Of a DNA stretch of 62,647 nucleotides, positions 2,811 through 62,647 are shown piece after piece (position 1 is the first letter of the stretch; the number at the start of each line of letters is the position of its first letter). Made by a program: the position numbers and the translations under genes. Origin of the DNA: Phoronis australis (taxonomy: Eukaryota; Animalia; Phoronida). Below the pieces are notes generated by a model, which worked only from the letters and a program-made list of their open reading frames with translations, was not told where the DNA came from and made no database searches. The stretch covers positions 649,264 through 711,910 of the forward strand of contig NMRA01000071.1 in the NCBI GenBank assembly GCA_002633005.1. The letters run 5' to 3'.

Positions 2811-3102
2811 TTTACACTTGACAGTTACTACTCTGAGAAGATGCCGCTCAACTTTGATCTCACCTCCTATAACAACGTTTTGTCGTGCTGAAGACAGTGT
2901 GCAGAACTCATCTTGTCAAACATGCAAAACTCTTGGAGACAATAGCCTACTACCACGAGCTGGCAACGACTGCATGATTCCGAAATTCCTGAATGGCAAT
3001 CTTACTAGGTTGTTACTCGTGCCTAGTGAATCCGGATATCTTACTATGTTCCACTGAAACTAACAGACATTTGTTTTTGTTATTGCATTGAATTGTAAAA
3101 TA

Positions 3103-17047: not shown

Positions 17048-17978
17048 TTAAGCATCAGGTAGCACGGAAGATTTCCATGTTGAACGGAGGACGTTCTTGT
17101 GGTTCTGATCCATTTTACGTTCCGTCCTCTTCTTTTCGCGCTCTTGTTTGGCCTGCAATGGCGAAACAAAGGTGTAGCAGACGACAGTGCTTGACTTTAC
17201 ACGTGGCTATGAAAGACCTTAAAACTAGTACAGTACTGAAAACATGTTTCAAAGCACATACGCAACGTTACACTGTTACATAAGAGCATCATCAGCCAAC
17301 ACATAAAAACGCGTCAAAAATTGCAGTACAGCAACGTGACGGTCACCGATCGCATACACAGTGAGCACGTGGCCACCTCAGCTGTAAAAACACTGAACTT
17401 ACTTTATGGTTCAGTGACTCTTGTGTATTCAGTTGCTTCACTTTGTGATGTAAAGCATTTCGTATACCTGTATGGTCCTGTTATGTAAAGGGAAAAGGTT
17501 GCGTCTGTTTGTATTTTATGAAATGTGAAGTTTTCAGAAACTGCGTTAGATATAACATCTTTGATCCTACTCTGACCACGAACTAAATTCACAATGCAAT
17601 TTTCTAATTTTCGTTCTGGCCTACACTCCCTACCGAGCTTCAGAAAGTGGGTTTGAAATTCCTGGGTCTCACCTGGCAGCCATGACTGTTATATCTACAG
17701 AGACCATCACCTGGTTATAGAGTCGCTCACCACCTGTTCATTGAGTGGCTCACCGTCTGTTTATTGAGTGGCTCACCGCCTGTTTATTGAGTGGCTCACC
17801 AGTCACCACCTGTTTATTGAGTGGCTCACCACCTGTTTATTGAGTGGCTCACCACCTGTTTATGGAGAGGCTCATTACCTTTAATTACCTTTTGGATATC
17901 CAGGTCTGGCTCATCGGTTGCAAAGAATGGAATGATTTCGGTGACCTTTCTCCACAGGTAATCTCCCATTCCCATGTC
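17048..17978 (-). CDS. PKD1-like exons 32-33: cytoplasmic C-tail and stop
   Basis: 17889-17978 encodes DMGMGDYLWRKVTEIIPFF...; 17048-17152 encodes AKQEREKKR...VLPDA*. Both junctions are phase 0. Confidence 0.65.
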
Positions 17979-20520: not shown

Positions 20521-20563
<43 letters not shown>

Positions 20564-38500: not shown

Positions 38501-41500
38501 TGTTGATCCATTCAGACGCGAGTTTACGACAGTCCCAAGAAAAGCTAATGCCTCTTTTGTCGTCAATTCTAACGTCGGGATCAGAAGAACGATCAATGGC
38601 GTTGAGACTAAGGGGTTGAGACCTAGCTGCACTCACAAACGGACCGCCTATAATTTCAGCTACGATATAGGAGCTGGTTATTTGTATGTACATAGATGCA
38701 TTGCCAGCGACACCAAACGGTTCAACTACAACTTTGACGTTAACGCGGTAAAGACCCACGTCTAAACTGAGTCCCGGTATATTTATGTGGTTCACGTCTA
38801 GATCGTCATTGGTCATCTCTTCAGGGAACGGCAAAGAAACAAACCAAGTTAAGTTGTTGTAGACATCGATGGTCCACACGTAGCTCAGTGCTGTACTTTT
38901 GCGACAGGTGGCGTGGTTTTTAACGTCAACCATAAGTTGCGTGCACCCTGAGCGCACGCTCTGGTGGGGATCTGTCATCGAGTTGTGTTTCATTAATCTA
39001 AATTGAACGTCTGGTTTCAGGCATCTAACGTCAACATTGACTCGTAATTCTTGTTGATAACTTGATACCAAATTCGAACAATTTGCGCGTACACGTTTAA
39101 TTCCACCATTGCTGTAGACGTGTGAATAATTATATAATAATCCGGTTGCAAATGACAGTTTTGAATATTCGAGGTCACTATCATCCCCATATTCTAATTC
39201 GCAGGAAACGTTAGATGGGAAATCATGGACGCTATCCATGCCCAGTGTAAACTGCACCACGTCACCTTCTTTTATTCGGCCCTTAGTGTGTAACATCAAA
39301 GAAAAACGACGAATAGGAATCAATACGAAGACGTTAACAACACTCGAAACTGCGTTCTTTGCCTCTACGAAAGGCTGGAATTGCCCAGGTGTGCTGTACG
39401 CGTGCGTAATGTGAAACATATGAGTACCAGATGGCGCCTCGAGCAGTCTGTAACATTCCACTTTACTACCATCACCAAAATGTAGCATACAGTATGAAGG
39501 CGTGGCCGTACCTAGTGTGACAGTTAAGGAGACTGATTCATTGGTTCGGACAATGCTTGGCCTAACTGTTAGCGTTACGTCTAACATTCTCATTGATGTA
39601 ACTGTTATGGCTTCGCCATGCCAGTCGCTTACACGGTTGGAACAATTTACATCAACAGTAAAATTCCCATTTCGGGGTGGTTCTAGAGTCATTATTTGGC
39701 CCAATCTGCTTTTCTTGATACGGTTATCTACTCGCCAATCACATGTGACCTCTGTGGGGTCAATTGAGTCGTTTGTCCAAGCGGTACATTTGAAGCGTCC
39801 ATCCGGGAACAGCACAGTGTCACTGCAATTACCATGTAATGACTTGATGGGATTCTGAATTGTGACTCCGTGTACCACTTTAATGACATTTGATATCAAG
39901 TTTGAAGCTTTCACGGAAATGTTAAACACTCCGTGAGATGAATACATATGACTGTCTCTGTAAACGTTGAATTCCAGATTGGCCGATAGATTTTGTTCAA
40001 CAAAGCCATCAGCATAGTCAATGGTAAGATCTGTAAAGGTCCCCGCATATGATCTGACGATGACCTCAATCGCTTCTCCGGTTGCTGCTACGACGGGTGA
40101 AACAGTCAAAACTAATCCATTGATCATTTCCACGACTTGCACAGTATTTGTCATCACCTCCAAAGAGCTGATCAAGTTAGAGCACAAGACCTTGACCTTG
40201 ATTTTTCCGACGTCAGACTTTTTCAGAGCAAAATGTTTTTGCACGGCTAGACCGACTGTCATCCATGGTGACATAAACTGTAAGACAGGGGCACGTAATG
40301 GGAAATGCCATTCACAGAAAGCGTCAGAGATAGCTGTCTGTCCTGTGTTCTGAACGGCACACATAACGAGGCCACCGGGAAAAGTAGCAACAGGTGAGCA
40401 GGCTACACTGAGGACATCTATCGGATTCTGAATAACAACATCTACGGTAGCTTTTTCCGACACAGACAAAAGGTTCACGATATAGACTTGTATCTTATAG
40501 CGACCAGGTTTCGTGTAAACATGTCTGTCCATAGACATAGTTCCGTTCGCCGAGTATCGTTGAAATGCGTTAGTGTTATTAACACCGTCTCCAAAGTCTA
40601 TTACATAACTGACGTTTTCACTTCTTCCAATCAAATTGATGGTTACATTCACAGTGCTATTAGTTCTTGCATACATTGGGGATGCGTCGGCATACAATGC
40701 ACTCAGTTTTTCCACTACCCGTGCAGTTGTGCTCCGGGTTATCTGACTGACAAGGTTCCAACATCGCACCGAGATGAACACGCGACCAATATTTTCCATA
40801 CTCACGGCGAATCTCTGCCTGTGTTGATTGCCTTTGGCTAGCGTGCCCACGTAGTGCCTACGTATTGCTTTATCACCATATGTCCAATCACAAAACACAT
40901 CTGATGGTGGTTTGTATTGGTCACTCCAAGTGGCGCACTCCACGCCTCCTCCGGGATAAGATACGGTTGTGTCGCAATGTAGATAAAGTGTGAGAATGCG
41001 TTGTTGGATGACAATACCAGGTACCACAATCGTTTTGCCGGATGTTCCATCGGCAAACACGGAAATGTTGTACGTCCCAGGTTTCGTGTATACGTGTTGT
41101 CTGTATATCCCGTCAGGGGGCATAATGTCTGGTGGACCCCACACGTTAACAACAGTCCCGTCGTTATAATCGATAGCCAAAGTAGCATTCTGGATAAGTG
41201 GCATTGTGACAGTGACATTTATGGGACTGCTTGTGTCAGACAATAAAGGAGATACGGAAACTTCAAGCCAAAGTATCTCTGCAACAATGGCGATATCGAA
41301 AGAGAATATTTCTGACCTGCTGACTAGGTTAGAACAGTTGGCAAGCAATTTCAATTCACCAATATCTTGTCGACTCACCGTAAACGTTTGCCGGTAGATT
41401 TTGCCGACGTCCAAGTGGAACCCCATGTACTTGGTAACCGGACGTCTCTGGCCATATCGCCATTCACAAAACACATCCGTAGGTTTTGAGGAGCCACTAT

Positions 41501-44500
41501 TGATAAGGGAACAAGAAATAACGTCACCTGGATGTTGTACTGGTGGCACGCAGCTTATGGTCACCTGAACGAGGGGAGCTTGTATAACCAATCCGGTTAA
41601 GTTTCCTTTCACTGTTGTTAGACTATTTGAAACCACAACTTGTACATCGTAAGTGTCGGCGCGTATGTATTTATGCATTTCCGTAGTTATGCTCGATGAA
41701 CTGGTAACATTAAACTGGTAAGTTCCCGATACAACCGTGCCGTCTCCAAAATCAATGGCGACACTTGCCGTCTCGTGCACCCCATCTACCGAAATTATCA
41801 AAAGTACAGTGCTGTTGGTGCTGGCGTGACCAGGATGAGCTTGTATTCTCAAACCAGTCAGCCGCCTGGTAATGAGCGTCGATGAAGTTTTGGTGACGTC
41901 ACTAACAAGGTTCCAGCATCTGAGTGAGGTTGTTACTATTCTCAAGTTGTTCCCAGGTATGGTGAAGTTTTCCCGATGTTGGACACCTTGACGGAAAGAG
42001 CTTAAATAGCGTCTGGTGGGACTGAAACCGTGGAAAAACCATTCGCAATAGATGTCGCTAGGGGGAATAACTTGATCACTCCACACGTCACATAAGATTA
42101 TACCTCCTGGAGATATGACATTTTCCGAACACTGAAATTTGAGGTCTCTGATTGGTTCTTGAATTACGACGCCGGACACTGTCGCGTTCTGTCGGGACAA
42201 TACGTTGATCGCACTGGCCGAAATATTGTACTCGCCTGGACTTGTGTACACGTGTTGACTATCTGCATGAAACAAAAATGTACTGGTCGCGTTGGTTTCA
42301 CTTGTTGACCCGTCGTTGAAATCTATGACAAGCTTTGAACCTTGCCCACCTTTGAATTTTACTGTTACGTTAACCGGGCATGACGTAGCCGACGTCATCG
42401 GCTGTACGTCTACCTCAAGGTCAGTTATCTGGGGGAAAACATGAACACTGTATTTGTACATCAATGACCTGCTGACGAGATTTGAACAGTTTAGCGTCAC
42501 ACCCATTATTCCAATGTGTTTCATGCGTGTATAGAAACGCATAGTATGTCCATCTGAGGTCAGAAGCTTAAAATACTCTTCAAAACGTCCTCCAGTAGAG
42601 AGGTTCAATAGGCAATATACGTGATTAGGAAATGGTGCGCGTGCTGCCTTGATATTACACTCTACGTCACCGACGCCTGCCAGGACTGCGTCAGTGCATT
42701 CAAATTCAAGGTCTTCAATTGGCTCCTGTATAACAATTAACTTAGTCAGGTGATATTCTTCTTTGGAAATGGAATTCTCCGCTAAAACGAGCACACTGAA
42801 GTTACCCGTGTGATTAAAAATGTGAGAAAAGGCAAACGTGGGGTTTTTAATCAAGCCATTCGAAAGCTGTCCTGTGCTTTGGAAGCCATCTCCAAGTGTG
42901 ATGGTGAAGATAACATTTGTACCTGTCTCGACCTGCGCTGTGAAAGCCAACTCATCGCCTCGTCTGGCCGTTAATGCTGAAGGCCGTAACTGTAGACCTT
43001 TTATGACCTCCTCCAAAATTACGTCAACATCGAACACCTGTTCGCTGACTTGGTTGAAAACGGTCACGTGGACTTGAAACGCACCGACATCTTCCTTATC
43101 AAAGAATACCGTGTGTTCTAAAACTCCTCTGCTTGTAATGGACTCTGCAAAAATCGTTTCTTTTCGTCCACGGGGAAACAACCAGGTGATGGAAGCGCCG
43201 TCTGGTGTCGAATTGAAGTTTCCCGTGTAATTTACACGGAATACCGCCCGACCATCGGGGTAACTGATAGGATTTGAAATAACTACTTGACAGTCCTTTA
43301 CTGGATTTTGGATGTGAACAATTTTTTCACAAACCTTATGGTCCAAACTATTCCTGGCCGTGAGCGTAACTGTGTATTTGCCACTTCGGAGGTATCTATG
43401 TGAAAACGTGACCTGTTCCTTGCTGCATGACATAGACGACAAGGACATCCAGTCTGCCTCACCATCGCCATAACTGATGTAATATGTAACGTGACTGCCA
43501 CGTGTACAACTTGCCTGGAATACAGCCGTGTCAGCAGTGACGAAGTAAGCCGACGGGCTGGTTATTGCTAAACCGTCTATCGGTTGAATCAGCGTCATTA
43601 CTGACCAAGCAGAAGCGGTTCGAGATAATTTGTTTTCGCACCATGTTGATACATTTATTGGTCCGACACTGTTTACGTTATACGTGTGGTTCACATGCAT
43701 GGTGTATTTCGTCGTCGGTGTGAACGTATTCACAAGCACTTCACCGTCATCGACAATAGTTTTACAAGTTAGGTCAAAGAGAATGTTCAGGTCCACTATT
43801 ACGTTACTAAGTTTTATGCCGATAGTAGCTGTACATGGCAAATTCAGACACTTAGAGGCTTCAAGGCTAATGTTCACACCGACACGTGACAAATCCACAA
43901 GGATTCTAAGTCTGTTCTTGCTGTAGACTTTCTCGACACCCTCAGACATCGTCATTATCAGTTGCGGTAGATAAACACCCGGGTGAGGAATTTGCACGTC
44001 ATCAAAATTTGTATTAAGTTCCGCACCTGAAAAGTGATTTGCATTGTCAAGCGGTTCTGTGATGTTCCAAGAATAGTTACCAACGTGGACAGCCAGCCTT
44101 AGATCAGAAATTGGAAGATAGGCGAGGGAACCGATCTTTATGTTCAGTTCGACGGGTTTGTCTTGCAGGACAGGCGTCAGTGGAATGCTGAGTTGCAGTC
44201 TGTGCCCTTTTCCTATTGGAAGATAGCAAGACAGTTCAAGTCGCTTTGACTTTCGTAAAACAGAGAGAAAAATGACACTGGCCTGCATATTTCACCAAAC
44301 CCTAGTTCTTACACACCTGCTATAGCGTAATTATTACATGTTCAGGTACCTCCTCTTGAGTGTTAAAATCAACGATCTTTTAAAACACTTCATTGGTCAC
44401 AAATTATGTTATTATTTGGTTCCATGTGATCGGAGAACCCCCCCTTCGTTGCTGCCGCCATCCTCTTGTTTAACAGTACATACATTTAAGCGGGCTAATG

Positions 44501-47500
44501 CACTGAAATAAATATGAGCTTTTGAACTTCTTGTAGACATCACAGGGTTTATGAAGGCAATGGATCATTGTTCACAATCTAGTTCTGGTTGATATCTGTC
44601 AATTAGCCGAAATCTATGTTGAACAATAGGTAAAGTAATTTTCAAAACAATCTGGCGCCCACAATCGCGACTAACTTTTCATTTTTGTATTAGAATCCGT
44701 TTCAGTTCTGCCTAAATCCTGTGCTCCATGTCAAAACGCTGCTTTACTGGAACAAACTGACTGATTATACTATTGTGATGGTTATCTGAACATTGTAACA
44801 ATGAACACCAAGTTCACGGGAAACCGGCAATTCATTTTGAGAAGTCCAAATACCCGAATTCAGGACGCTAAGCTTCAAGTGATGCAGTTTTGAACTTTAC
44901 AGCAACTGAACATTCGAAAACAATCTGTAATTTGTACAATTTAATTTTAAAATTGTGTGTATTTCCTATATGTTAGTCAGCTTTTCTTCCATGATTAGGC
45001 CCGTGTTCTATTTAAGGGCATACACGATTGTTTCCCCATCAGACCGGGATTCACATTTCATACATAAGCCTCACAAAGGGGACATCCTTTTCATTAATTG
45101 CACTATAGTCCTATACATGTAGCCCAGCCGCAACACTTATGTAATACTCACGTGACTTGCAAAGAATTGTTTTGGCTTCCGATTCTTTCAACAAAGTCCA
45201 GTACGTGGAGTTATCAGCATTTATGTAAGCGGCCATTTTATTTTCCTTAAATTCTTGAGCCGTTACCATCCCCGCCAAAGGATCAGTGTACATGTTTGTA
45301 ATTCCATCGATCCAACTCCACCCCAAAGGTGTCGCGTTTAAACCTATCATGACGTCATGTCCGCCCTGATTTACACGAAGTCTAATGGAGAAAAATGAGG
45401 TAAATGTAGGTGTTTGAAACGCAATGACCACATTTTGATTGATAGTTAAGTGAGCAGATGGTGCAACAAAACAAATTTAAGAAAGTAACTTGATGCCGTG
45501 ATATAGATACTTTGTAGCCTAACGCATTGTCTTCAAAACATTCCTTTGTCCCGTAGGGTATCAGCTCTACCTATTTAAATTTGAAACTGCTCAACTATCT
45601 GAGAATGGCCTTGAAAACCACAGAAACCCGAAGTGGTGAGTTTGACTCATCAGTCTCTTCTCATATTTTTTAATAAAAGTTCGTGAATTGTAGACAAACT
45701 CCAACAGAAATTGCACTATTCTGCGTAGATAATTTATGAATCTGAGTTGATGACAGTACCAAGTGGTGACTAGATGTTGCGATCGATTCTTTGACCATTC
45801 TAAAGATTGATCTTAGAGCGCTCTTGCTGACCACTCAATGCTGTCGATGATCTCTGATCTGTGGGCTCTAGAGGCTCTGTACCAAGCGGTAATAGCTTAA
45901 AAACCCTGTTTATTACGGGAAGGAATTACTCCGTTCATCCACTTGGAATTTTTACATCCCTCTCAAACCATGTGCTTTCTTCATCCTAAAGTATCACGTT
46001 ATTGTTGTTCAAATTGTGTCCACTAATCTCTAAGGCTGCTGAACTGCCTCCACTAGAGCAGAAAGACTTGTGTTGATACATGCGTTTGGAGATTGGTTGT
46101 TTCGTCTCTTCAAGATATGCACGATCGCAGTTTTCACCCTCACAGTGAATACAGTACACTATACCACTTTTACGTGGAATCTCAACTTTCTCCTTTGTGT
46201 GGATTTGTTGACTTCTCAGAGTACTAATGGAATTGTGCGTGTATGAACACAGATATTTCAAGTGTAGGAGAGATAAGTCAGTAGTCTGCGCATTTCAAAA
46301 CTAGTTGACGCAATACTGACATCAATACTCGGATGATTTTGGATAAAAAAGCAGGTGGTTTCAGGGGTGGGTGGGAGGGGGGGTAAAAAGAGGCCGCCTG
46401 GATGGACAAAGCCTTAACAGGCTGGTTGACGGTAGGTTTAAGCTGTTGAGAATGAGACTCAACGTGGAGTCGTCACGTGGTAATATTGCAGTCTAGAAGA
46501 GAAGGTTAATAAATTATCATCTATCGCTATCAGCTGCATAAATCATAATACCCCTATCTATATTTTATTGTGTGTATGTTCAACTTTCTTTACTTAGAGA
46601 TAACCACAGGAGCAGTGACTTATTGACAGCAATCGTCATTAAAACGCACATGTAAGATAAAACCGCCGCCTGTTCATGACTTGAAACAATGCTGGCCAAC
46701 CGCGCCTCAACGTCACTGGCCATAGTACGACACGTCCGGTCAGCCTCCATGAGTGACATGTTAGCATGTCTCTTTACTTCGTGTAGCCGGTAACAGAAGC
46801 CACGTGAAGACTTGTTGTCAAGTAAATGCCATCCTTCACCACACCCATCTCGATCTATGAGAAAGTGTGAATATAAATTCTTGAGTAAAAAAGAATTTGA
46901 ATTCCCAAACCAAGTAAATGTTTTCCATTTTAATTAAGTAAAAGTGTATATTTTCTGAAACCAGGAACGGTTGTAGAACTTCATGTTTGACTTTGTATCA
47001 ATCTATTGATTGGATCACGTGATTATGTCTTTTGATGGGAATTAACAAAAAAGAAAGGTACATCTACATCTATACCAAGAGTCCGGTATCAATGACATGG
47101 CCATGTTTCAGTTCACATAAATGTTTCGAGATGAATCCCCGAGAACTTTGCTTCAAATTCTAAAATTTGCATGGTTTTCGTTTTATGCAACAAAAATCTT
47201 GCATTTTCATAGATGTCATGTAAAAATGGAACATTATAAAATAATTCGTAATTGTTTTGAAGAATAGTATGTAAACCATGATATCTGAAAGTTTCATATG
47301 AATCCGATCATACTGTTCTGAGACATGATGTTCCAAAGACTTCCAAATATAATCATTTTTGAGGGTTTCACATACTCTTAAGATGGCATTGTGATTCGAA
47401 ATATCAGCTTACTCACATCTCACCAAGACACATGTCCAGTCATCGATTGACTGAACGAGGCCGAGACAATGACATGTTGCAGTCTGACTTGTTGGTGATT

Positions 47501-50500
47501 CCCGTGAAAAAAGTTGTTTTCAAACAGTCCCTATACTTTCAATAAGCCAACATTAAACGTGTGTGGAACCTTGGACGACATTTCGAAACAGACATGAGTA
47601 GGCTAATGCGTCCAACAAAGTAGACGCTAGGTAGTACTCACTAATGCGGTCAGCGTAGGTGGTACAAAACACGTCGTATTCATATCTACACGAGTCAGAA
47701 GTAGGGACATCCCATGAAAGCACTCCCGACGTCTTGCACGATGGTGTGACCTTTTGCACCACAGCGTACGTATAGCAACCTCCCTCTTTGTTCACCCAGC
47801 CTGGTCCACAATAGCCGAAGCCTAAAATACAGTTCTTACAGTATCAAGCATAGTGAGAAGCATGGATTGTTTAGGGTATAGGATTATGACAGCAACTTAA
47901 TCCAGTTCCAGCCTTGATTAACATATGTTTGAGTTCAAATCATCGTTTTAAAGTATTTTGTTTTACATTGTCAGAGCTAATCAAGCTTGTGACAGGTGGT
48001 GGAGATATAGTATCAGAAACCTTCATTGGTGTGGTGGTCTCTGCGGTGTAGGGTTAACGGGGTCATGTACATCCGACAGGCTTTATGGTGTAATGGTTAC
48101 AGTCACGTCCGTAAGACAGTGTCCATGGTTAAAGGCGAAGGCAACCTTTTTATGTCACTTTTAGCAAAAATAAGGTGTAGACGACGAGTAATTGATTAAA
48201 TTACAAAAAGCTGTAAATAAGTGAAAAATATGTCTGGGATAATCAACGAACCCTATTTTTGCTAAAAATGACATGAAAAAAGGTTGCTTTTGCCTTTAAG
48301 TTTTTAAGGTGTGCTTCCGTCCGACAACCTCTACGGTGTCGTGATTAAGATATACGTCCCTCAGACAATGGGACTCTTTAGTGCCGTGATTACGGTACAT
48401 GTCCGTCAGACAGCGTCTTTGATGTCGTGATTAAGATATACGTCCCTCAGACAATGGGACTCTTTAGTGCCGTGATTACGGTACATGTCCGTCAGACAGC
48501 GTCTTTGATGTCGTGGTTAAGATGTACGTCTGTCAGACAGACTATGTAGTGTAGTAGTTAAGGTATACGTCTGTCAGACTGTGAGCATCTGTGGTATCGT
48601 TGTTAAGATATATGTCCGTGAGGCAATCTCTGTAGTGAAGTGGTTATTGATACGTCCATCACACAGTGTCAGTGGTGAAGTTAAAGGTACATTTTGCTCT
48701 GTTTAGCTGGCTAAAACCCGAAAATTGAATTAGGGGTATTACGCAGACAAAATCGGTCATATAGTATTCCTTACGGCGATAGGATTCTATTTCCGTTACC
48801 AACAAGAACACTTAAAACATTACTTGCTCAAGAAAACGCTTCTAAGTTGGCCAACCCTAAAATGCCAATTGTCAAAATCGGTGCATGTGCGCAATGCCGG
48901 TGACTTTGGTTGTCCGCTCAAAGTGTCGCAATTCAACATGGGATCAGCGTGAAAATTTATACCAAAAAATGCTTTAGTTAAGAATTATACATTGACAACC
49001 AGAACAGAATAGAGGGGCTCTGGACGGTTTTAATTTATTTTCAATTTTCATATTTCTATTTCGCTTTTTCCTACCACAAATGTGGGTCTCACCGACTTAG
49101 TCTTTTCGCGACACTTGGCCAAACAAAATTACTCTGGAAAACGTTAGATTTCATACGTGGGTAACTGAAAAGCCTTCTGTAATTGAATTAATAATTGAAA
49201 TTCATTCGCAAACGAATTAAAACTCCGCACGATATTAATTGTAACTTTCAAGATCTTTAATTGTACTCCTTGTAGTGCCAATTTTCTTACCTAGGCGTAA
49301 GTGAATGAGTTCTTTAAGAATTGTGTTTACCTCGAAGTGAAGCTTTTTGACCTTTGCATAAAAGTTGAAAAGTTATTCATTATGATGCGCAGCGTGTTTT
49401 CCCTGGTGTAAGAGCAAATCTGTGATCGTCAACTTCACTTTTGACCTATTTTAGCTCAAACAGCGTCATATAACTACGCCCAAACTGACCTTCTCAAAAG
49501 CGCACCAATTTCACTGAAGATCATTATTACTTCACAACATTTCACTTGATGGTGATTATGCTACACCGTTGCGTTTGTGAAAGGAGTTTTGTTGACAGAA
49601 ATAATCTAAGAGAAGAAGTTTGTTCTTGAGTAAATTGCCGTTTGATAGAAGTCACCACTAGTAACACGTCCTTGTGAAATTTGATGTCGCGTGCTATTTA
49701 TTAATTGCCAAACCACAAAGACTCCACGCAAAACCAAAATTTTTTTTCAAAGCTTTAATAACTTGGGGCTGGACATAAAATGTCATGTACAAAATTTGTA
49801 AGCGAGTTAATGTTGTGTTTCTCATGTGCTTCGGACGTAACGTGGAAGTCAACGATTAGAGTTTGCATGTCTATATATGATGGAGACAATCAGTGAACGG
49901 TCCTATAGTCTGCTTTCTGGGCATCGGCTGTTTTACAGATTACGATAGAAGTGAAACCAAGAAATAACAAACATAGTCGAAGTCTTAAACAAAATTATAC
50001 TCTATCAATAAGCATCGGGCTTCCTATTCGCATTTACCTTGCTTGTGTGCTGACACGAGGTCGTCGTAGTTCGCCCAACGAGCACCAGGTGCAAACTTGG
50101 CGCATCTTGCTTGAGTTTCCTTATGCTTAGTGTGCTTTCGCACAAGCGCGAGCTCCACTTGAATGAAAAAAAATTGGATGCAGTCGAGTACAGAAAGTAA
50201 GAAACCTCTTGACAAGACAAATTATTTTTTGAGTATTAGCAAACCTTATTAATTTAAAATTCAATTTGTTAGTAAAAAGTGTTTGTTAATGCGAATGTTG
50301 TCATCACAACAAATTTTGTCAAATGCTTTGTTTCTCTTTTGCTTTGAGATTACCGCTCTCTAGCGGACATGTAGGCAGCCACTGTTCCGGTAAACTTCAT
50401 AGACGTATCTCTATGGTCAGTAGTGTTTCCCGATATATGGGACGATATAGGGTGGAATATAAACACGAAATAATTGTTACCGTTTGAACAGAAACAATTT

Positions 50501-53500
50501 CGTAACTTAGAAAACTGTAACTTGGGAGTTCGAGTTGATTTTTTGGGACTTGTGTATTTTAGGGGATTCCTAGCCAACTAGTGCCTGGGGGGGCTTTACA
50601 CAAAACACACTGTCGGACGAGAAAGGCTCAGGCGTCATAGCGGGAAGCTTGTGACCAAACGGGGTAGCTTAGTCAATTTCGTCTTCGAACGTTATGCATG
50701 CAACCGGCACAAATGGTCGATAAACAAAAAGACATATTTTTTGTTTGTTTTTGCATTCCACCATATATATCGGGTTACAGTTGTGTTTCCCACCGATGTC
50801 AAGGCGGCCACGTGACAGCTTTTTCACTTAGTACCTTCTACTTACTACGTCACTGTCATTGCCATTCGTTTGATAAAAACCTTGAGAATAAAACTTCCCT
50901 ATAGGCTTGTCGTTTTTAGGACTCACCCGTAGGGCAACTTTCCAATGAACATTGTGATTGATGTCCATAAGGACTTGCGAGATCCACCAATGCGTAGTAC
51001 GCAGTGAACAGTAAGTCCGTGATCCATCAAGCATAATCACACGGGACTTCAACACAAATATCCGTGAATAAGTCATGACTTGTATGTTAACCTTTAAACA
51101 GTTGACTAGCTTACTTACCCGTAGGCACACAATCGATTGCAATCACTTGACACGTCTCATTGATTTCGGTGACTCGACATTCGTTAATTCTGCTTTCGCT
51201 GCCTTTGCACCATACGTCACCCCATCTTACTGGTGTTGCTGACATCTCCGTAAATAGATGTTTTACCACGTGACTACTGTAGCCCAGTTTAGAACAAATG
51301 AACTGTAAAGAGGCATAAGTATCTTAAGGTATTCATTGCAGACGTAACAACTGCGTCAAAGTCTCCGAAGATACACATACATTTACTGAATCTATTTATA
51401 GACGCGTCCACAGTTCCCATGACAACACAGAAAGTGATGCTTTTACGAGTCTGTGACTCTTCTTTGTCGTTTGCATTCCATAAACGCAGTCAATGATGTT
51501 CAAAGGTTTTCTTGGTTAAATTTATTTGACCAGGTTTTACAAAATTAATCACGTCCATCCCATTACAAAATGAGATTCACTCCCACAGGAGATTTGATAG
51601 ATTATGTTCTTCTTTTCCTCGATCTGTCTTTGGTTTAATTTTGGTCAGTTGTCTAGCGAGCGTGTGTGAGCTACGGTATACCCATCCTTTTGAACTCCTT
51701 GCAAATGTATCTTAGGTTTCAGGTATGTATGGTAGGTACACAGTTTGTCGTGTCTGTTCCTTTTCAACCTTCTCCATTCGTTGTGATGTTGTTGCTGATT
51801 CGGTATATCTAGGTAAGTCTTGATAAGGGCAACCAATGTTGCATATGATCGGTCAAACATTGCCATGTCTGGTTTTTGTATCTTAGGTCAGCAGCGACAT
51901 ACATTTGTGGGGCGTTTGCGTTGTTCGGATTGAGGTCTCGGCAGTTTTCATTGGTCCTTTGACCTTTCTTTCTGCTATTCTGGTCTTAACTGACTCTGTT
52001 TCCCAATAGCGTCCACTGTATACTAGACTTGTCATATTTGTGTTGCCATCTTTACCCAGTGCTGCACTTGGATTGCATTCATCGTCTTACCAAATGATTG
52101 TCTTCTCGTCTCTAGATAGTGTCAAGTCTTCAATTCCGGTTCAGGCCAAGTCTTGGCATCTTGGCCTAAGGTAGTGTTAGACTGCACGTGACACGTGCTG
52201 TGCCCCTATGAGCTGCCTTGTTGTTTTTGGTAGAAGCTGCTTCAATCCTAGCTAAAGTTTTTTTGGTCGGGTGGCGAAATTTTGACCTTTAGACAAAAGA
52301 CCATGTTGGACAATTGTAAGTTTGCTGTCTTATTTGATTATGTTCACTCCTTGAACGTGAGTGTTCTTGGATGTTGCAGTGCTTCTTTCAGCTTCTGGAA
52401 TTGCAACCTGTGACGTAGTTTGGTCTGTCTGTTGTAGTTTTCACGTGAGTGGTATACCGCTGTTTCCAGTCAGTGTTACATGTATATTGCTCGGCTCTGA
52501 GACTGGTGTTTCTGGTTTGTGATGTGCTTGACCTTCTCAGCAGTAATCCATTTTTTGAAGTCTTGGGGGGTCAAGTTTGTGAGGCACGTGTGGATACGCC
52601 TTGCTTTTTAGCTTGACTGAGAAATGTTGTTTTCAATGCATCTAGGAACAACATTGTTTTCTCGACATTGCATGAGGAATGTTAGATATTCTGCTCCATA
52701 CTACGTTTTAACTGCCTTCTCTCGCCACTCTATGCCAATGTCATCCATTAACTTCAAGGGAAATTTACTGTAGTTTGTCGTCTCATTTCTTAGGAGAGGT
52801 AACTTCTACTCGCTACGCTGACTAAAACCATTTTCATATACCTCACTTCATTTGCATAGTTTCCATGGTGTCTTTTTATCCAGTCTGTTTCACTGTCGAG
52901 TACGCGGATGTTATCCCACAGGATTGCATGTTATTTGGACCACGTACATGTAACCTCTGCTACCTGCTTGTGATAATCCACTGCTTTACGGCAGTTGTCT
53001 TTACGTTAATTGCGCACGAACATTTAATTGAATATCAGAGTTAAAGCATTTTGAGAACATAGATCCACAAATTGGTGAATGTTAATAACATAGACCTGTC
53101 TTGAAAATTAACGACCAACGTTTCTTACCTTAACTGTCTCGTACGACGATATATTGCATGCAGCGCCCCATGTGTTAGCGTCGTACACTTCTAATCGTCC
53201 GTACGATCCAAATTCCCCACCATACTCGAGGCGAACATTAACTATTAACACAATACCATTATATAGTCAACTAAGGTGGCTCAGGAAATGCATATACTGA
53301 AAGCACAGCAATGCACTGCAGTATCCGGCCATTGTCACAAAAAGTTTAGCTGGATAACAACAGTGACGTCACGCCATTGCAAATTCAGTTGTCATTATTG
53401 AATGAAACTTTGGCGCCATACAACTACTTAACTTATATTGGCTAAAAATTGTTTGTTTTATGTAACCTACAGTGATACAATTATTAACAATACATTCTCT

Positions 53501-56500
53501 GGAGCCGTCACGTGACTGGAATGTAATCTTAGAATATAGTTTTAGTTTATTTTGTTACAGAAAATCCAATTTTGTACTTGCAGCTGAACATAACAAATTT
53601 AGTTAATTCTTCATGTTGGCCTCCTAGCATTAAGGTTACGTGATAAACTACTTGTCAATTGTTATAACATTGTTGGTTTTACTCAGACCAGCTTGTAAAA
53701 CTAAATCCCGCCAAATCCATCCACCCTCTTCTCAATTGTAATTTTAAAGAAGCATACAACATGAAAGTTCGTCAAAATATCATTTTAACAATTCCTGACG
53801 AAATTACAGTCTTGCAACGTCTAGGACTGAGTAATTCATTTTCCGCTTTGAAGAAATTTCCAGAAAAAAACACGATTTTTAAAATACGCACGAAGGAAAA
53901 ACTCTGTGGTTACCACAGAATTTCTAATCTCCCTCCTACCTGTGATACATGCGCGCATACGCTCACAGTCAGTTGCTTGAAGTTGCAAAGATCACCTTTT
54001 CCATATCATGGAAATGTGCTCGTCTATGTCATGTCATACCAAATAAGGGCACATGCTATGCTTTGTAGGAGAAAATTGACGAGTTGCAAGCAGCGGACAG
54101 ATCGTTTTTTTGAAATTTGAAACTAAAAGAAAACGCTTTTATTGTATATCAACAGAAATTAACAATATCTATGAACAAAACCTAAAATATCCGGTGAGCA
54201 GGTTGAATTCTGTTTCAGTAGCAGTGAACCTCTTTGAATATTGCAATTTAGTCTGTTTATCCCGTTCCATACCTCTTTAAGGAACTGGAAATTTTTCAAC
54301 AGCCAATTTATAAGAGATTAAATTTCTTACCTCTACAATGACCGTTCACCACTGACTTAACTGTTGTATTTGACTGGAAAACCAATGACTTTTCTTTTCT
54401 TGAGCTTAATATTTTTCTTGGCTTTTTTGATTGTCTGATATTTGGAGCTTACGCTTGGAGCATTTCTGTTACTTGGGAACATGCTCGTAACCAATAATTG
54501 TCATTCTTACCGTGAATTCCAGCTGAACCCTTTCACACCCTGATACACGGGGAGGTGTGTCTTATTATCCAGTCCAAATGCGTGGTCAAACGCACGTGTT
54601 CATATGAAGCCTTTATGATAAGTAACCTGTACCCTTTACAATTTGAAAGTACCTTTAGTTTAGTGAATGACATTACTAGATCGAGTGAGTCTAAGGTTCC
54701 AAAACCATGCAGGCGTGATCTTGTAATCATATAGGATTTTAGGTCAAGCGTAACCGAGGTGCTCGTATTTACATACAGTGTACATGCATGTGTATGATAA
54801 CGGTGTACAGAAAAGAACGAATATCGTATCAAATGATCATGTCCAATGGCACTCGTAGTAGTTCTGGTGTTCTCGTCATTATTCTTAGGCACGAAGTACT
54901 TTATTTCTGCACATGCGCCACCTTCAATCATAACAACAAGTCATGTGACTTAATTTCAACAGAAACGTCGACTGCCAGAAACCTTTTTGATTGCACGCTT
55001 AGACAGGAGTTATAGTACACGACGAGAATCGAGAATTATGTGACGTAAGCCTATCAATGATCACACCTGCCAGGTTGAAACCGTTTGTTTAATCCATCAC
55101 AAAATGTTCCTGCTGTTGTAATTGATGTGGACTGATATGCAGATATGAAACACATTCGATGGATAAGTTGAGATTACGAAAATACTCGAGGTGCTCCAGA
55201 TTTCCCAGTATCTTTCTCATGTGACAGGCGACACAAAGTAATGCTATACACAAGTTAATCATTAGAAATTAATGATATCGTAATAAAGTAACTTGTCAGG
55301 AAAACTGCAAACATATTTTTGACGTGCGTTGCTGTATGTATAAGACGAGTACAACTTGTGTTCACAATAGCAAATGTACATGAGGGGTACAGTAGGTGGA
55401 GCTTCGCGTATATCCAGTTTAGGCGCTTGTGTCGATACGCGAGACCAGTATTTAAACCGAGAATGATTTTAATATATTGTCACTATAACTCATTTGATAT
55501 CCGTTACAATGCAATAGGTGCTTCAGAGAAGTATAGAGAACGGGCAAAATACTCACAAAATCTTCAATTAAGGCAAGCTCTCACGCAAATGACGGATGCC
55601 TGGTCTTCGTAAGAATTGTTGTGACACATCGTCGCACTCGACACATACTGCCGCCCATGCGACACTATGTGTCGGCGTTCACGATATATATCGGCGGTAA
55701 GAGTCGAGTGTGACGATATTTGCGTCAACATCATGAGTGACACATATTGTCGCCCCTCAAACATCAACTTACACTCACCAAACTCAAATGCCCGTATGTC
55801 ACAGATACTGAGTTGGTCGACAGTATTGCTGTAACTGATAATTTGAACGCTGATAAATCGACCGACGATCGGTTGGTCGCAGTATACATTGACAGTTTCG
55901 CCGGACAAATACCCTCCTGCAACCATCCGGCAGAGGTCGTTCTTGTGAAAGGCGCTACTGTGTCCTATTCTCAGTTCCACATTTCTGAACATCTTCTCTA
56001 AATGACCAAAAGTAAAATAAAATGAAGGCCAATTTTTGACTAACAAGGGTCGAAATTCTGCCATCCAACAAACAGCAACAAAATATCCATTTTATTAATC
56101 CGATTCAATTCTGGCTGGATCTCGAAAATATCTCGATTGGAGTAGCTCCATGCACGTTGTCGTCAGTACATTTTATAAATAAAAATAACGGCGAGGAAAA
56201 ATAACTGCAAATTAAAATCCGACAAATGTTTCACAAACGTGCTTTTTCATTAGTGCAAAATCTCGATATAGCTGCCAAATATTTCTGGCAAGCAGTTGAT
56301 ACAAGTTTGAAAGCATCTGGCGGAGTTGTTCGGAAGACTTTAAATGATTTTGAAAACTGCTATACACCCAGCCGTGCCATATTGTTGGAATATAATTGAA
56401 CAAGTGCCGCAATGGATGTGGACATCGCCGAATCGAAAAATACTATATGCCTAAAAGAAAATGGCGATGTTTCAATATTATTTCGTAATCTTAATTCTGA

Positions 56501-57397
56501 CTCAAAAATAAGATGAACTAAAACTTTTTCAATGCGTATCAGGTAAAGCAGTACGTCTGCATACTGTTAAGGTTCTAAACGGCATGAACAAAATGAACCT
56601 TACCTCCTGTTCCATGTCCAATAGTTATCACCAAATTGTAGATCTCATAGTCTTTGCTGAGGTCTAGCAAGAACCATGGGTTCTTCTCCCTGTTGGTCAT
56701 TGCGCACGACCACGAGGTGTCGGACCGAGCGTCCACCGCACGTGCAGCTTCGTGAGTCTGACTTGCGGTGCTAGACAACGACGCATTTTTACCAAAGGCA
56801 ACGTTTTCTGAACGAAATAAAAATATGTTCACATTTTTACAAATACAAGACTGCGCGTCGATGGATGCGTATAGGCGTAAATGTGGTCATTTCGAATGGA
56901 AAACTTTCCGACTGAAGAAATGAGCACTCCATTCTACCAATGAAAGAAACTCATTTTGCAACGACAGGAACTTGTCTTCCAAAACCGTGACATGGTTACA
57001 AAACAACTGTGAGGGGCACCGGGAAATAAATAATAATTCAATGTTTTACATAGCGTTGAATGATTTTTTGCGACGGTTTTACGTGAAAGGTAATGGTATA
57101 TACCACAAAAAATTACAAACATAAAAATTTCGTAAGGGGACGCGACCCCAGCTTGGAATACTTTCTCGTGTACACCCATCTCCTAACGTAGAAACGCCTA
57201 TAACTAATTCAACTGTGCCAATGTACATGTAATCTACTTTATTTTTACGTTGATCAGCGCCATGGTTGTTCACAAGTCACACATCACGTAGAACAGATAC
57301 ACTGTTAATCATGGTGATTGTAAAAATAGGACCTACCAGCATTTGATAGTCCGCGCAAAGTAAATATGAATAAAATCAAGAAAAACGCCTTCTCCAT
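17048..57397 (-). CDS. Polycystin-1-like (PKD1L/REJ family) receptor, 33 exons, about 4,244 aa
   Basis: Hand-built exons, all AG/GT and phase-consistent, total 12,735 nt: 57337-57397, 56604-56807, 55779-55997, 53129-53241, 51119-51302, 50038-50157, 47642-47821, 46650-46854, 45152-45381, 38296-44212, 37750-37919, 36844-37002, 35759-36042, 35108-35239, 34446-34607, 33308-33398, 33006-33085, 30968-31198 (donor uncertain), 30023-30727, 29266-29499, 28654-28824, 27652-27809, 26499-26800, 25641-26173, 25358-25514, 24298-24509, 23559-23733, 22944-23408, 22317-22538, 19739-19891, 18797-19107, 17889-17978, 17048-17152. Confidence 0.88.
17724..17880. repeat. 23-bp intronic minisatellite, about 6 copies
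   Basis: Unit gctcaccacctgtttattgagtg. Confidence 0.9.
18797..24509 (-). CDS. PKD1-like exons 26-31: polycystin TOP domain and channel-like TM region
   Basis: Motifs DFWEWL, VRLRQLRV, YSGNGY, WIDRQTRVVFVEFTVFNMNVNLF, YFKQPWNVVN and RFLRILKF, followed by the final hydrophobic helices. Confidence 0.92.
19252..19285. repeat. (ATACA)n microsatellite
   Basis: Seen directly. Confidence 0.9.
20480..20590. repeat. (CA)n followed by (TG/TA)n microsatellite
   Basis: Seen directly; explains the spurious HT/CV ORFs. Confidence 0.9.
20715..20813. repeat. Intronic hairpin with 46-bp arms, weakly extendable to ~20690-20836
   Basis: ctcaggtttatgacatgggcaaaacgtcttggaaatttcgtcaagc pairs with gtttgaccaaatttccaagaggttttgcccatgtcataaatctgag; 4 mismatches. 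Confidence 0.85.
21931..22001. mobile_element. Tiny MITE (CATGGGCG... termini); same family as 61978-62113
   Basis: catgggcggcgcaccatagggg...ttttttcagtgct is the reverse complement of 62054-62113. Confidence 0.7.
22218..22286. repeat. 34-bp tandem duplication
   Basis: cttgcagcgtcatggacttataac.ctacgtcat x2. Confidence 0.85.
24594..24797. repeat. 21-bp intronic minisatellite, about 10 copies
   Basis: Unit aatccaaaccttcaaactaac. Confidence 0.95.
25358..26800 (-). CDS. PKD1-like exons 23-25: PLAT end and TM2-TM5
   Basis: Motifs CNKWLS, HLVFSVASRPVSSTFSRVQRLSC, LPFWVIYIGW, LYSFEWGGEKSRGWL and VNPLKVLLLAAVFSLI. Confidence 0.92.
27434..27592. mobile_element. MITE of the CAGGG(GC)GGATCC...ATCCGCC(T/C)(A/C)TG type
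   Basis: cagggaaggatccaggattt ... aaatccgcctatg imperfect TIRs with G-runs. Confidence 0.5.
27652..29499 (-). CDS. PKD1-like exons 20-22: GPS end, TM1 and PLAT/LH2 domain
   Basis: FVPPNTIDF, TM1 (VVASICTVIGVYLVMIFVC), SVFTG...ATKSNV, FRRGAVDNF, LRIWHDNQG...SWFL. Confidence 0.92.
27880..28087. repeat. 34-bp intronic minisatellite, about 6 copies
   Basis: Unit ctctacccagtgaaccatctgcacgaaccacttg. Confidence 0.92.
30023..37919 (-). CDS. PKD1-like exons 11-19: REJ module and GAIN/GPS region
   Basis: CIENC, NLPPIGGKCAVTPQQG, FTVECEGWKD, LLLPTG...VIDEFGA, FRVNPF and CSRWD...W...C. Confidence 0.85.
35441..35529. repeat. Tandem duplication, 48-bp period
   Basis: aagttcttcacccttgaataacacat.tcttggatacagaa x2. 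Confidence 0.85.
37185..37702. repeat. Degenerate (CAC/ACC)n low-complexity tract in intron 11
   Basis: Strongly C/A-biased; produces spurious Pro/Thr ORFs. Confidence 0.8.
38296..44212 (-). CDS. PKD1-like exon 10 (5,917 nt): about 17 PKD/PKD-like Ig-fold domains and start of REJ
   Basis: Within the 1998-aa ORF. Repeated (I/D)FGDG/YNDG...H.Y..PG.Y.V.V.A.N.VS units. REJ start with SSDPD and FSWDC. Acceptor ccaatag|GA, donor AT|gtaagt. Confidence 0.93.
45152..46854 (-). CDS. PKD1-like exons 8-9: C-type lectin-like domain
   Basis: CGEGW...CY...EADRTC...LASIVSSHEQ | VMIGL...WSWIDG...ILCK. The phase 2 junction matches. Confidence 0.85.
45890..46261 (-). mobile_element. Penelope-like element remnant (GIY-YIG endonuclease) in the C-type lectin intron
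   Basis: KEKV...SGIVYCIHC...CDRAYLEETKQPISKRMYQH...SAA, then ILDEESTWFER, follows the PLE endonuclease pattern. Confidence 0.8.
47642..50157 (-). CDS. PKD1-like exons 6-7: Link (Xlink) module
   Basis: ETQARCAKFAPGARWANYDDLVSAHKQ|GFGYCGPGWV...Y.V....PSC...GVLSW...YDVFC matches the Link consensus EA..C...GA.LA...L..A...G...C..GW...Y......C..GV......YDVYC. Confidence 0.75.
48129..48299. mobile_element. TTAA-flanked MITE (Kolobok/T2-like; TTAA|AGG...CCT|TTAA)
   Basis: About 45-bp imperfect TIRs aggcgaaggcaacctttttatgtca / tgacatgaaaaaaggttgcttttgcct. TTAA at 48129-48132 and 48296-48299. A longer relative starts at 62336. Confidence 0.85.
48315..48690. repeat. About 38-45-bp diverged minisatellite with an exact recent ~85-bp dimer duplication
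   Basis: Repeating gtgattaagatatacgtcc.tcagaca units; 48338-48422 is repeated at 48423-48507. Confidence 0.85.
51119..53241 (-). CDS. PKD1-like exons 4-5: SRCR domain
   Basis: VRLEYGGEFGSYGRLEVYDANTWGAAC...|FICSKLGY...VRWGDVWCKGSESRINEC...C..IAIDC. Confidence 0.85.
51645..53000 (-). mobile_element. Decayed Penelope-like element in partial tandem, within the SRCR intron
   Basis: GIY-YIG C-terminus VAE....*HAILWDNIRVLDSETDWIKR (~52870-52963), followed by PLE N-terminal motifs LTFLMQCRENNVVP (~52645-52685), LSKGQNFA (~52270-52296) and YLKPKIH (~51705-51725). Confidence 0.65.
55779..56807 (-). CDS. PKD1-like exons 2-3: F-type lectin (fucolectin/FTP) fold
   Basis: ENVAFGKNASLSS...AARAVD...C.MT..EKNPWFLLDL | VELRIG...C...C..PIVGRFISVQ...LSICDI. 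Confidence 0.85.
57337..57397 (-). CDS. PKD1-like exon 1: signal peptide
   Basis: MEKAFFLILFIFTLRGLSNA plus G|gtagg; phase 1 joins exon 2 (ENVA). Confidence 0.75.
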
Positions 57398-62335: not shown

Positions 62336-62647
62336 TTAAAGGCGAAGGCAACCTTTTTCCATGTCATTTTGAGCTAAAATAAGGTTGGTTGGTTATCCTA
62401 GACATATTTTTCACTTAATTACAGCTTTTCGTAATTTTATTAATTACTCGTCCGCTTTTCCGGAAGTGACGTTTTAGGAGGCAAGCGCTTCCCGCCACTT
62501 GGTTTTGCGTTGAGCTTACTGTGCGAATCTGTTCTATTCTACTTTTGTTTTGTGCTATTTTTCACCAATTGTCGCCACCACTTTCCATCGGCGAGTATTC
62601 TGCGGCAAGATAGGTTAGTAGAGAACTCAACTGCGTTGGATTTAGGG
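62336..62647. mobile_element. Longer copy of the TTAA|AGG element, probably extending beyond the window
   Basis: 62336-62452 is the reverse complement of 48185-48299, then continues into sequence absent from the 48.1-kb copy. The far end is not seen. Confidence 0.65.

What the first reader, a model, noticed from the sequence alone, without database searches (positions are those of the whole stretch)
45152..57397. Polycystin-1-like receptor capped by four pattern-recognition-type domains (F-type lectin, SRCR, Link, C-type lectin)
Seen: nine small exons, mostly missed or only partly captured by the ORF track, splice in phase into signal peptide-FTP-SRCR-Link-CTL ahead of about 17 PKD domains and a full polycystin membrane region. 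Each domain is bounded by phase-1 introns, the classic exon-shuffling signature. Known: human PKD1 has LRR-WSC-PKD-CTL-LDLa, and sea urchin REJ proteins have CTL/SUEL/EGF/CUB domains; I do not recognise this combination. Inference: a glycan- or microbe-sensing head on a long stalk, coupled to a PKD2-type Ca2+ channel. It could act in immune sensing, larval settlement or gamete recognition.
Basis: partly seen in the sequence, partly recalled or inferred. Interest (0 to 1): 0.9.

Follow-up and report, generated by a model that had tools for sequence, protein, structure and literature searches.

The report
Polycystin receptor with reshuffled lectin-like head
A transcribed invertebrate gene is predicted to encode a giant polycystin-1-family membrane receptor tipped by an unusual row of four lectin- and scavenger-type domains; its two lectin-type domains lack the standard sugar-binding residues, so it likely works as a long contact sensor for a calcium channel rather than as a classic microbe detector.

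Summary
Nine small minus-strand exons, all GT-AG, splice without a stop into signal peptide, F-type lectin (FTP), group A SRCR, Link and C-type-lectin-like domains. All five domain borders are phase-1 introns. Then come 16 clear plus one weak PKD-type repeats, REJ, GAIN, PLAT, TOP and channel segments (33-exon model, 4,257 aa). RNA reads confirm three joints: SRCR-Link, Link-CTL and CTL-stalk. The FTP-SRCR joint and the 3' half have no read support here.

None of 176 long homologues carries all four head domains. Each occurs in other invertebrate polycystins, though: amphioxus has Link+CTL+FTP, a hemichordate has SRCR. Heads in this family are routinely shuffled.

The pattern-recognition reading is weakened. 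The FTP domain has lost all three fucose-binding residues, and the CTL lacks EPN/QPD/WND and one disulfide. The self-cleavage motif H-L-T is replaced by L-F-G; 59 of 65 homologues keep it.

Most likely it is an uncleaved, tethered adhesion or mechanical sensor that partners a PKD2 channel (inferred). A new architecture variant of a known family; interest moderate.

The parts
57337..57397 (-). Exon 1: ATG and predicted signal peptide (aa 1-20), phase-1 donor
   Evidence: strongest hydrophobic run among the candidate leader exons scanned, with a good donor; no read joint listed
56604..56807 (-). Exon 2: N-half of F-type-lectin-like (FTP) domain; fucose-binding His and first Arg replaced
   Evidence: Pfam F5_F8_type_C E 7.4e-6; alignment
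55779..55997 (-). Exon 3: C-half of FTP domain
   Evidence: Pfam E 0.18; spliced domain hhalign prob 93
53129..53241 (-). Exon 4: N-part of group A SRCR domain
   Evidence: Pfam SRCR E 0.15
51119..51302 (-). Exon 5: C-part of SRCR domain (6 Cys over the two exons)
   Evidence: Pfam SRCR E 2.4e-5; Cys count; joint to exon 6 in 4+1 RNA reads
50038..50157 (-). Exon 6: N-half of Link (Xlink)-like module
   Evidence: RNA joint 50157/51119; profile match over aa 277-353; no Pfam hit alone
47642..47821 (-). Exon 7: C-half of Link-like module
   Evidence: Pfam Xlink E 0.19, model positions 45-91 of 92; joint to exon 8 in 2+5 reads
46650..46854 (-). Exon 8: N-half of C-type-lectin-like domain
   Evidence: RNA joint 46854/47642; spliced domain hhalign prob 92
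45152..45381 (-). Exon 9: C-half of C-type-lectin-like domain, no EPN/QPD/WND, inner Cys pair missing
   Evidence: ESM Atlas top hit Lectin_C 0.91; joint to exon 10 in 6+3 reads
38296..44212 (-). Exon 10 (5,917 nt): unassigned 105-aa segment, one weak and 16 clear PKD-type repeats (39030-43589, alternating classical and Cys-variant), start of REJ
   Evidence: Pfam PKD 9 stretches, REJ E 2.8e-32; two-domain beta model pLDDT 92, top match SorCS2 ectodomain; read depth about 1-7 in X1 and X2
35759..37919 (-). Exons 11-13: rest of REJ
   Evidence: Pfam REJ positions 210-410 in order; model
30023..35239 (-). Exons 14-19: predicted GAIN region, with a Ser/Thr-rich loop holding an R-x-R-R furin-like motif (30155-30166)
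   Evidence: open reading in model; no Pfam hit on exons 18-19; no read support
29266..29499 (-). Exon 20: degenerate GPS (L-F-G in place of H-L-T, near 29446-29457) and TM1
   Evidence: alignment; hydropathy
26499..28824 (-). Exons 21-23: PLAT domain and next transmembrane segment
   Evidence: Pfam PLAT E 6.9e-7 and 0.022; tblastn
18797..26173 (-). Exons 24-31: further TM segments, TOP (Polycystin_dom) and PKD channel region
   Evidence: Pfam Polycystin_dom E 2.3e-30; PKD_channel on three exons, positions 11-223 in order
17048..17978 (-). Tentative exons 32-33: short cytoplasmic tail and stop
   Evidence: chosen by eye from splice sites and an open frame; not supported by reads or profiles

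Best explanation
This is a transcribed polycystin-1-family gene of an invertebrate, predicted to encode a 4,257-residue receptor with an exon-shuffled four-domain head (FTP, SRCR, Link, CTL-like) on a stalk of about 17 PKD-type repeats; it likely works as an uncleaved, tethered contact or force sensor that modulates a PKD2-type calcium channel. Shown: exon structure, domain order, three inter-domain splice joints, loss of the canonical fucose and Ca2+-sugar motifs, loss of the GPS H-L-T. Inferred: the head binds matrix, mucus, glycosaminoglycan or protein ligands through non-canonical surfaces, SRCR and Link being the best candidates. The stalk (roughly 60-70 nm if extended, my estimate at about 4 nm per unit) holds the head off a ciliary or apical membrane. 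Binding or pulling passes through an intact GAIN domain to the TOP and channel region of a heteromer with PKD2. If the ectodomain is shed, the furin-like site 61 residues before the dead GPS would be the cut (speculative).
For: Open 33-exon model with canonical splice sites. RNA joints E5-E6, E7-E8, E9-E10, all in the orientation expected of a minus-strand transcript. PKD, REJ, PLAT, Polycystin_dom and PKD_channel hits in order. FTP triad His/Arg/Arg replaced by Met/Gly/Met, against amphioxus FTP domains that keep the motif in 3 of 4 (motif from PMC5712786). CTL has 4 Cys but not the inner pair, and no EPN/QPD/WND. GPS triad L-F-G versus H-[LM]-[TS] in 59 of 65 homologues; human PKD1L1 and PKDREJ are likewise uncleaved (PMC9672506). 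Invertebrate PKD1-like genes tested so far act in or mark ciliated mechanosensory cells: Platynereis PKD1-1 with PKD2-1 is needed for the startle response (PMC6294549), and a Nematostella PKD1-like gene is hair-cell specific (PMC8846589).
Against: No ligand, tissue, localisation or partner was tested; the RNA samples are coded. No PKD2 gene in the window, no genome held, and the C-terminal tail (where coiled-coil coupling would lie) is tentative. Six of nine head joints, including FTP-SRCR, were not listed in the reads, and short reads cannot prove one transcript. Loss of canonical residues does not exclude sugar binding by other surfaces; the human PC1 CTL activates the channel through a PKD2 glycan (PMC7728438). 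The SRCR keeps a G-R-x-E-V-x-x-x-x-x-W stretch close to the bacteria-binding peptide of DMBT1. Orthology to Platynereis PKD1-1 was not tested. The furin motif is about what chance gives in 3,200 residues; only its position is suggestive (4 of 124 homologues have one there).
Confidence: 0.55

Rival explanations
1. Pattern-recognition receptor-channel: the head binds microbes or foreign glycans, mainly through SRCR and Link, and opens a PKD2 channel in immune, gut or larval settlement cells.
For: All four folds are common in innate-immunity proteins. The SRCR is an intact six-Cys, two-exon group A domain with a stretch like the DMBT1 bacteria-binding peptide. A Toll-like receptor gene lies 14 kb beyond the modelled stop, which is adjacency only.
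Against: Fucose triad and CTL sugar motifs lost. The SRCR stretch is also the structural core of the fold. There is a single SRCR, whereas DMBT1 binds by many copies. None of my searches gave a polycystin shown to sense microbes.
Confidence: 0.17
2. Gamete-recognition receptor like sea-urchin REJ1/REJ3: a sperm-surface protein whose fast-evolving head binds egg-coat polysaccharide and triggers Ca2+ entry.
For: [quoted passage not shown] The protein is highly divergent (best 33% identity in the membrane region). Read depth differs between samples, X3 being near zero. Mammalian PKDREJ is also uncleaved.
Against: The fucose-binding triad is lost. Expression is low in all three raw-read runs. Sample tissues are unknown. 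Divergence may only reflect an unsampled lineage.
Confidence: 0.15
3. Two genes or a split: exons 1-3 make a small secreted FTP protein of their own, and the polycystin begins at another, unseen first exon before the SRCR.
For: No read joint was listed for introns 1-4. Exon 3's frame runs on 70 codons into intron 3 to a stop, with one AATAAA about 660 nt further. The exon 4 acceptor is weak (72nd percentile). One candidate leader exon lies in intron 3 (ATG at 55262), with a poor donor score of 1.5.
Against: The exon 3 donor is strong (99th percentile) and falls exactly at the domain end in phase 1, matching exon 4. Depth at exons 1-4 is at most 0.7, too low for a three-read threshold. The read-through tail overlaps repeat-matching sequence (contig loose ends at 55631 and 55663).
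Confidence: 0.1

Closest known systems
Amphioxus polycystin-1-like protein P0167 (XP_078659501, 3,260 aa)
   Same: GPS-PLAT-TOP-channel core; head with Link, two C-type lectin and an FTP domain
   Different: Other order, plus LCCL, F5/8, trefoil, PAN and fn3; no SRCR; no PKD or REJ hit; near-canonical GPS (H-M-T); not the sister in the tree
Ptychodera flava 'polycystin family receptor for egg jelly-like' P0087 (XP_070568587)
   Same: SRCR domains in the head of a PKD-REJ-GPS-PLAT-channel protein; pairs with this gene in the tree at local support 0.84
   Different: Head is HYR x2, SRCR x4, LamG; no FTP, Link or CTL; canonical GPS; both branches are long, so the pairing is weak
Amphioxus long-stalk polycystin-1-like P0077/P0183 (XP_035692642) and Dimorphilus P0209
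   Same: Best matches to the stalk (270 and 197 bits), with 5-6 copies of the same Cys-variant repeat; P0077/P0183 also among the best REJ-GAIN matches
   Different: None of the four head domains detected; canonical GPS in P0077/P0183
Human polycystin-1 (PKD1)
   Same: Size near 4,300 aa, long PKD stalk, CTL, REJ, GAIN, PLAT, TOP, channel region
   Different: No LRR, WSC or LDL-A here; about 18-23% identity to the PC1 group in the membrane region, and outside that group in the tree (sheep and fish PC1 used as stand-ins); GPS not canonical
Human PKD1L1 and PKDREJ; sea-urchin SpREJ1-10
   Same: PKD1L1 and PKDREJ lack the GPS H-L-T/S and are uncleaved; SpREJs carry varied lectin heads
   Different: None has FTP, SRCR or Link in the texts I read; orthology not tested, as none was in the tree

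Membership tests
Polycystin-1 (PKD1/REJ) family | REJ module | tested here: met
   Pfam REJ positions 7-410 of 452 over exons 10-13
Polycystin-1 (PKD1/REJ) family | PKD repeats | tested here: met
   9 Pfam stretches; 16 clear units; model
Polycystin-1 (PKD1/REJ) family | PLAT after TM1, then TOP and six-TM channel region | tested here: met
   Pfam PLAT, Polycystin_dom and PKD_channel in order
Polycystin-1 (PKD1/REJ) family | 11 transmembrane helices | tested here: inconclusive
   8 hydropathy peaks above 1.7 from aa 3212 on; 11 is inferred from alignment to homologues
Polycystin-1 (PKD1/REJ) family | GPS region before TM1 (present; cleavage not required for membership) | tested here: met
   Aligns with homologous GPS, keeping the first Cys, both Trp and the second Cys
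Autoproteolysed polycystins (PC1, PKD1L2/L3 type) | H-L-T/S cleavage motif | tested here: not met
   L-F-G, and the C-x-C before it is lost; 59 of 65 homologues canonical
PC1 orthologues (PKD1 proper) | LRR-WSC head and grouping with vertebrate PC1 | tested here: not met
   No LRR or WSC in the model; outside the PC1 group
Polycystin receptor-channel complex | Assembly with a PKD2 subunit | not testable with these tools
   No PKD2 gene in the window, no genome held
F-type lectin domain | F-type fold with two disulfides | tested here: met
   hhalign prob 93 over 133 columns; 4 Cys at 55, 111, 128, 154; not folded
F-type lectin (fucose-binding) | His..Arg-x-Asp-x4-Arg/Lys motif | tested here: not met
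   Met, Gly, Gly, Met at these columns (motif per PMC5712786)
Group A SRCR domain | Six cysteines, two exons | tested here: met
   definition in PMC3100851
Ligand-binding SRCR (SALSA/MARCO type) | Acidic dual cation site | tested here: inconclusive
   Acidic residues appear partly replaced (Asn-Ile after the first Cys; no His-x-Glu-Asp near the end), but my mapping of the residues of PMC7043408 on to these motifs is recalled, not aligned
Link module | Profile match and four core Cys | tested here: inconclusive
   Pfam E 0.19 on exon 7; 6.3 bits versus shuffle maximum 4.8; hhalign prob 34 to a single seed; 6 Cys; Atlas gave only CTL-clan hits at 0.80
Link module | Hyaluronan binding | not testable with these tools
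   The Ciona Link binds other glycosaminoglycans, not hyaluronan (PMC12383584)
C-type lectin-like domain | Fold signature (outer disulfide, WIGL-like core) | tested here: met
   hhalign prob 92 over 70 columns; Atlas 0.91; alignment; not folded
Ca2+-dependent C-type lectin (CRD) | EPN/QPD and WND motifs, inner disulfide (motif names partly recalled) | tested here: not met
   None present; inner Cys pair absent

The most novel reading that the evidence does not exclude
An immune or environmental receptor-channel: exon shuffling grafted a whole panel of pattern-recognition folds on to a polycystin. The SRCR and Link modules capture microbes, biofilm or glycosaminoglycan at the tip of a stalk about 70 nm long and gate a PKD2 calcium channel, with furin shedding in place of the lost GPS self-cleavage. 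That would tie non-self recognition directly to an ion channel, with no Toll-like cascade between.
Probability: 0.12. Interest if true: 0.75.

Novelty: new variant of a known kind. Interest (0 to 1): 0.36.

Why it matters
Ligands of polycystin-1 proteins are a long-standing open question. This gene shows the family used as a platform with swappable heads, here four modules each bounded by phase-1 introns, and with the self-cleavage site that matters for human PC1 lost. It is a natural chimera for asking whether the head sets specificity and whether an uncleaved GAIN can still gate PKD2. It is not a new kind of system: shuffled heads occur across invertebrate polycystins, and each module has a precedent.

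Tried and rejected
No genome is held, so paralogues and PKD2 partners could not be sought. The run search listed no indexed RNA holder; the runs laid came by species label. The contig run X4 gave only repeat matches. PDB sequence searches with exons 8, 9 and 7 gave 0, 0 and 3 non-significant hits. A homologue search with the TOP exon returned one protein, because lengths were capped at 2,000 aa. The single-sequence fold of aa 507-713 failed (pLDDT 33.5), so that segment stays unassigned. 17 other ORFs of 100 aa or more had no Pfam hit, no tRNA genes, and no earlier scan findings. The GPS count (99 of 100) was not used, because its pattern favours canonical sites. Rejected: chance ORFs or pseudogene (open 4,257-aa frame, spliced reads); PC1 orthologue (tree, head); canonical fucolectin or Ca2+ lectin activity (motifs lost); a read-through 175-aa ORF at 55564-56091 as the real exon (strong donor at the domain end). 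The organism could not be placed: hemichordate, amphioxus, mollusc and flatworm homologues are all about 31-33% identical.

Full report
1. Observation. The finding lies on the minus strand. Nine exons of 61-230 nt between 57397 and 45152 join through GT-AG introns to a 5,917-nt exon starting at 44212, with no stop codon. Intron phases are 1,1,1,0,1,1,1,2,1. The five introns between signal peptide, FTP, SRCR, Link, CTL and stalk are all phase 1, against 9 of 23 downstream introns; that is roughly a 1% coincidence by my arithmetic. Each domain is also split once internally. Scored with matrices trained on 22 downstream introns, the nine donors rank at the 94th percentile or higher among GT sites of the region. 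Acceptors rank at the 66th-98th, those of exons 4, 9 and 10 being weak.

2. Domains. Per-exon Pfam gave F5/8-type (FTP clan) hits on exons 2-3, SRCR on 4-5, Xlink on 7 (E 0.19), and nothing on 6, 8 and 9; all were under the curated cut-offs. I therefore tested the spliced domains in scripts against small profiles from homologues (5 FTP, 4 SRCR, 1 Link and 27 CTL sequences). Each profile's best match in the 4,257-aa model fell on the expected domain and beat 500 of 500 shuffles, by a thin margin for Link (6.3 versus 4.8 bits). hhalign gave probabilities of 93, 76, 34 and 92, with cross pairs at 1.4 or less. The ESM Atlas put exon 9 with C-type lectins (0.91) and exon 7 only weakly with the CTL clan (0.80); the two Atlas searches are leads only. 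From memory, not checked: TSG-6 has a phase-1 intron at the same place in its Link module.

3. Transcription. Three raw RNA runs and one contig run were laid on 38200-58000; about 18-19% of each raw run was read. Three joints match the model exactly: 50157/51119 (SRCR-Link; 4 and 1 reads in X1 and X2), 46854/47642 (Link-CTL; 2 and 5) and 44211/45151 (CTL-stalk; 6 and 3). All have the first mate on +, as expected for a minus-strand transcript in the usual stranded library. The other 6 of 9 head joints were not listed; the tool needs three reads, and depth at exons 1-4 was at most 0.7. X3 showed no joint and almost no depth. So the SRCR-to-stalk borders are shown, the FTP link is inferred, and one continuous transcript is not proven. 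The 3' half has no read test.

4. Rest of the gene. A 33-exon model gives 4,257 aa without an internal stop; exons 32-33 were chosen by eye and may be wrong. Pfam finds REJ, PLAT, Polycystin_dom and PKD_channel in order. The stalk is eight doublets of about 190 aa, a classical PKD repeat followed by a Cys-containing variant. The two classes are homologous (hhalign prob 96), and the variant occurs in 35 of 176 long homologues. One doublet folds as two beta-sandwiches (pLDDT 92; top Foldseek match the SorCS2 ectodomain, E 3e-8, TM-score about 0.5). A weak 17th unit and an unassigned 105-aa segment precede them.

5. Functional residues. FTP: the fucose motif of PMC5712786 (section read) is replaced at all three basic positions, while 3 of 4 aligned amphioxus domains keep it. 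The four structural Cys remain. CTL: the outer and N-terminal Cys pairs remain; the inner pair and EPN/QPD/WND are absent. SRCR: six Cys on two exons, the group A definition (PMC3100851, passages). Its first strand resembles the DMBT1 bacteria-binding peptide, while its cation sites (PMC7043408, passages) look partly lost by a recalled mapping. GPS: L-F-G replaces H-L-T and the preceding C-x-C is gone; 59 of 65 aligned homologues are canonical and 6 are not (one more had a gap). The only R-x-K/R-R of the ectodomain lies in a Ser/Thr-rich loop 61 residues upstream. One such match in 3,200 residues is near chance; 4 of 124 homologues have one in that zone.

6. How unusual is the head? Three homologue searches and one exhaustive HMMER search found no close orthologue; the best identity over 1,053 trimmed membrane-region columns is 33%. 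Of the 150 hits I Pfam-scanned 33 long ones. One has SRCRs (P0087, Ptychodera), one has Link with CTL and FTP (P0167, Branchiostoma), and others carry LDLa/Frizzled, EGF/SEA, CUB, WSC, LamG, SUEL, kringle, PAN or fn3 heads. Among the 120 of 342 hits listed, none has SRCR or Xlink, 7 have F5/8 and 7 CTL, 2 both (counted by eye). My profiles on all 176 fetched proteins of 1,900 aa or more found none with all four and one with three. These profiles are small, our own domains score only 6-19 bits, and automatic gene models often lose small 5' exons, so similar heads may be missed. A full-text search for polycystin + Xlink + SRCR gave 0 papers. Nine other searches listed none that describes this architecture in title or abstract; subscription papers and supplements were not seen.

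7. Placement. A FastTree of 59 rows (67 aligned, 8 near-duplicates dropped; hits not included) puts the protein outside the PC1 group and inside the invertebrate PKD1-like radiation. It sits on a long branch beside P0087 at support 0.84, which I do not trust. Human PKD1L1/L2/L3/REJ and Platynereis PKD1-1 were not in the tree. The stalk is closest to amphioxus P0077/P0183, which are also among the best REJ-GAIN matches.

8. Mechanism. By family knowledge, PC1-type subunits join PKD2 subunits in a channel regulated by the ectodomain; in human PC1 the CTL acts on a PKD2 glycan (PMC7728438, passages). PKD1L1 and PKDREJ lack the cleavage tripeptide (PMC9672506, passages). Tested invertebrate members act in or mark ciliated mechanosensors (PMC6294549 and PMC8846589, passages; the passages of PMC11448475 gave planarian expression patterns only) or act in sperm (PMC1934368, parts 1-2 of 4 read). 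With the sugar sites gone and the GAIN likely uncleaved, a permanent tether that passes contact or force to the channel fits best (0.55). Immune sensing (0.17), gamete recognition (0.15) and a split FTP gene (0.10) remain. Invertebrate Link modules are patchy and need not bind hyaluronan (PMC12383584, passages). PMC514892 and PMC13554239 (passages) added little.

9. Verdict. A real gene, a correct observation, and an architecture not seen among the homologues examined, in a family where heads are swapped freely. New variant of a known kind; interest 0.36.

Noticed in passing
window 579-2915, minus strand: Intronless Toll-like receptor (LRR, TM, TIR) with an internal cysteine cluster as well as the membrane-proximal one, the multiple-cysteine-cluster type by recall; same strand, 14 kb beyond the modelled polycystin stop.
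   Followed up: partly
window 4964-5608, minus strand: Reverse transcriptase fragment, LINE-like (Pfam RVT_1 E 2e-25).
   Followed up: no
window 45989-46294, minus strand, intron 8: 102-codon frame that by eye resembles a GIY-YIG endonuclease relic of a Penelope-like element; no Pfam hit.
   Followed up: partly
window 38296-44212: One 5,917-nt exon encodes the whole repeat stalk, while the head is finely split by introns; stalk and head have different histories.
   Followed up: partly
window 40844-44148: In runs X1 and X2 some bins have as many or more first mates on the minus strand (depth up to 3.6), a possible antisense signal or library leak.
   Followed up: no
window 48183-48299 and 62336-62452: 117-nt inverted copies (89%) of a short interspersed repeat; the first draws many off-target RNA reads with strand-switch joints, like a MITE.
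   Followed up: no
window 18427-18750, minus strand: 107-codon open frame just past the last channel exon; could be an alternative terminal exon; no Pfam hit.
   Followed up: partly
P0064, P0074, P0088, P0103, P0158 (database homologues): A supported clade of invertebrate polycystin-1-like proteins that has also lost the GPS H-L-T, apparently separately from this gene.
   Followed up: no
P0042 (Ptychodera flava XP_070577742): Polycystin-1-like protein with 19 LDL-A and 12 Frizzled-type domains in its head, a candidate Wnt-binding polycystin.
   Followed up: no
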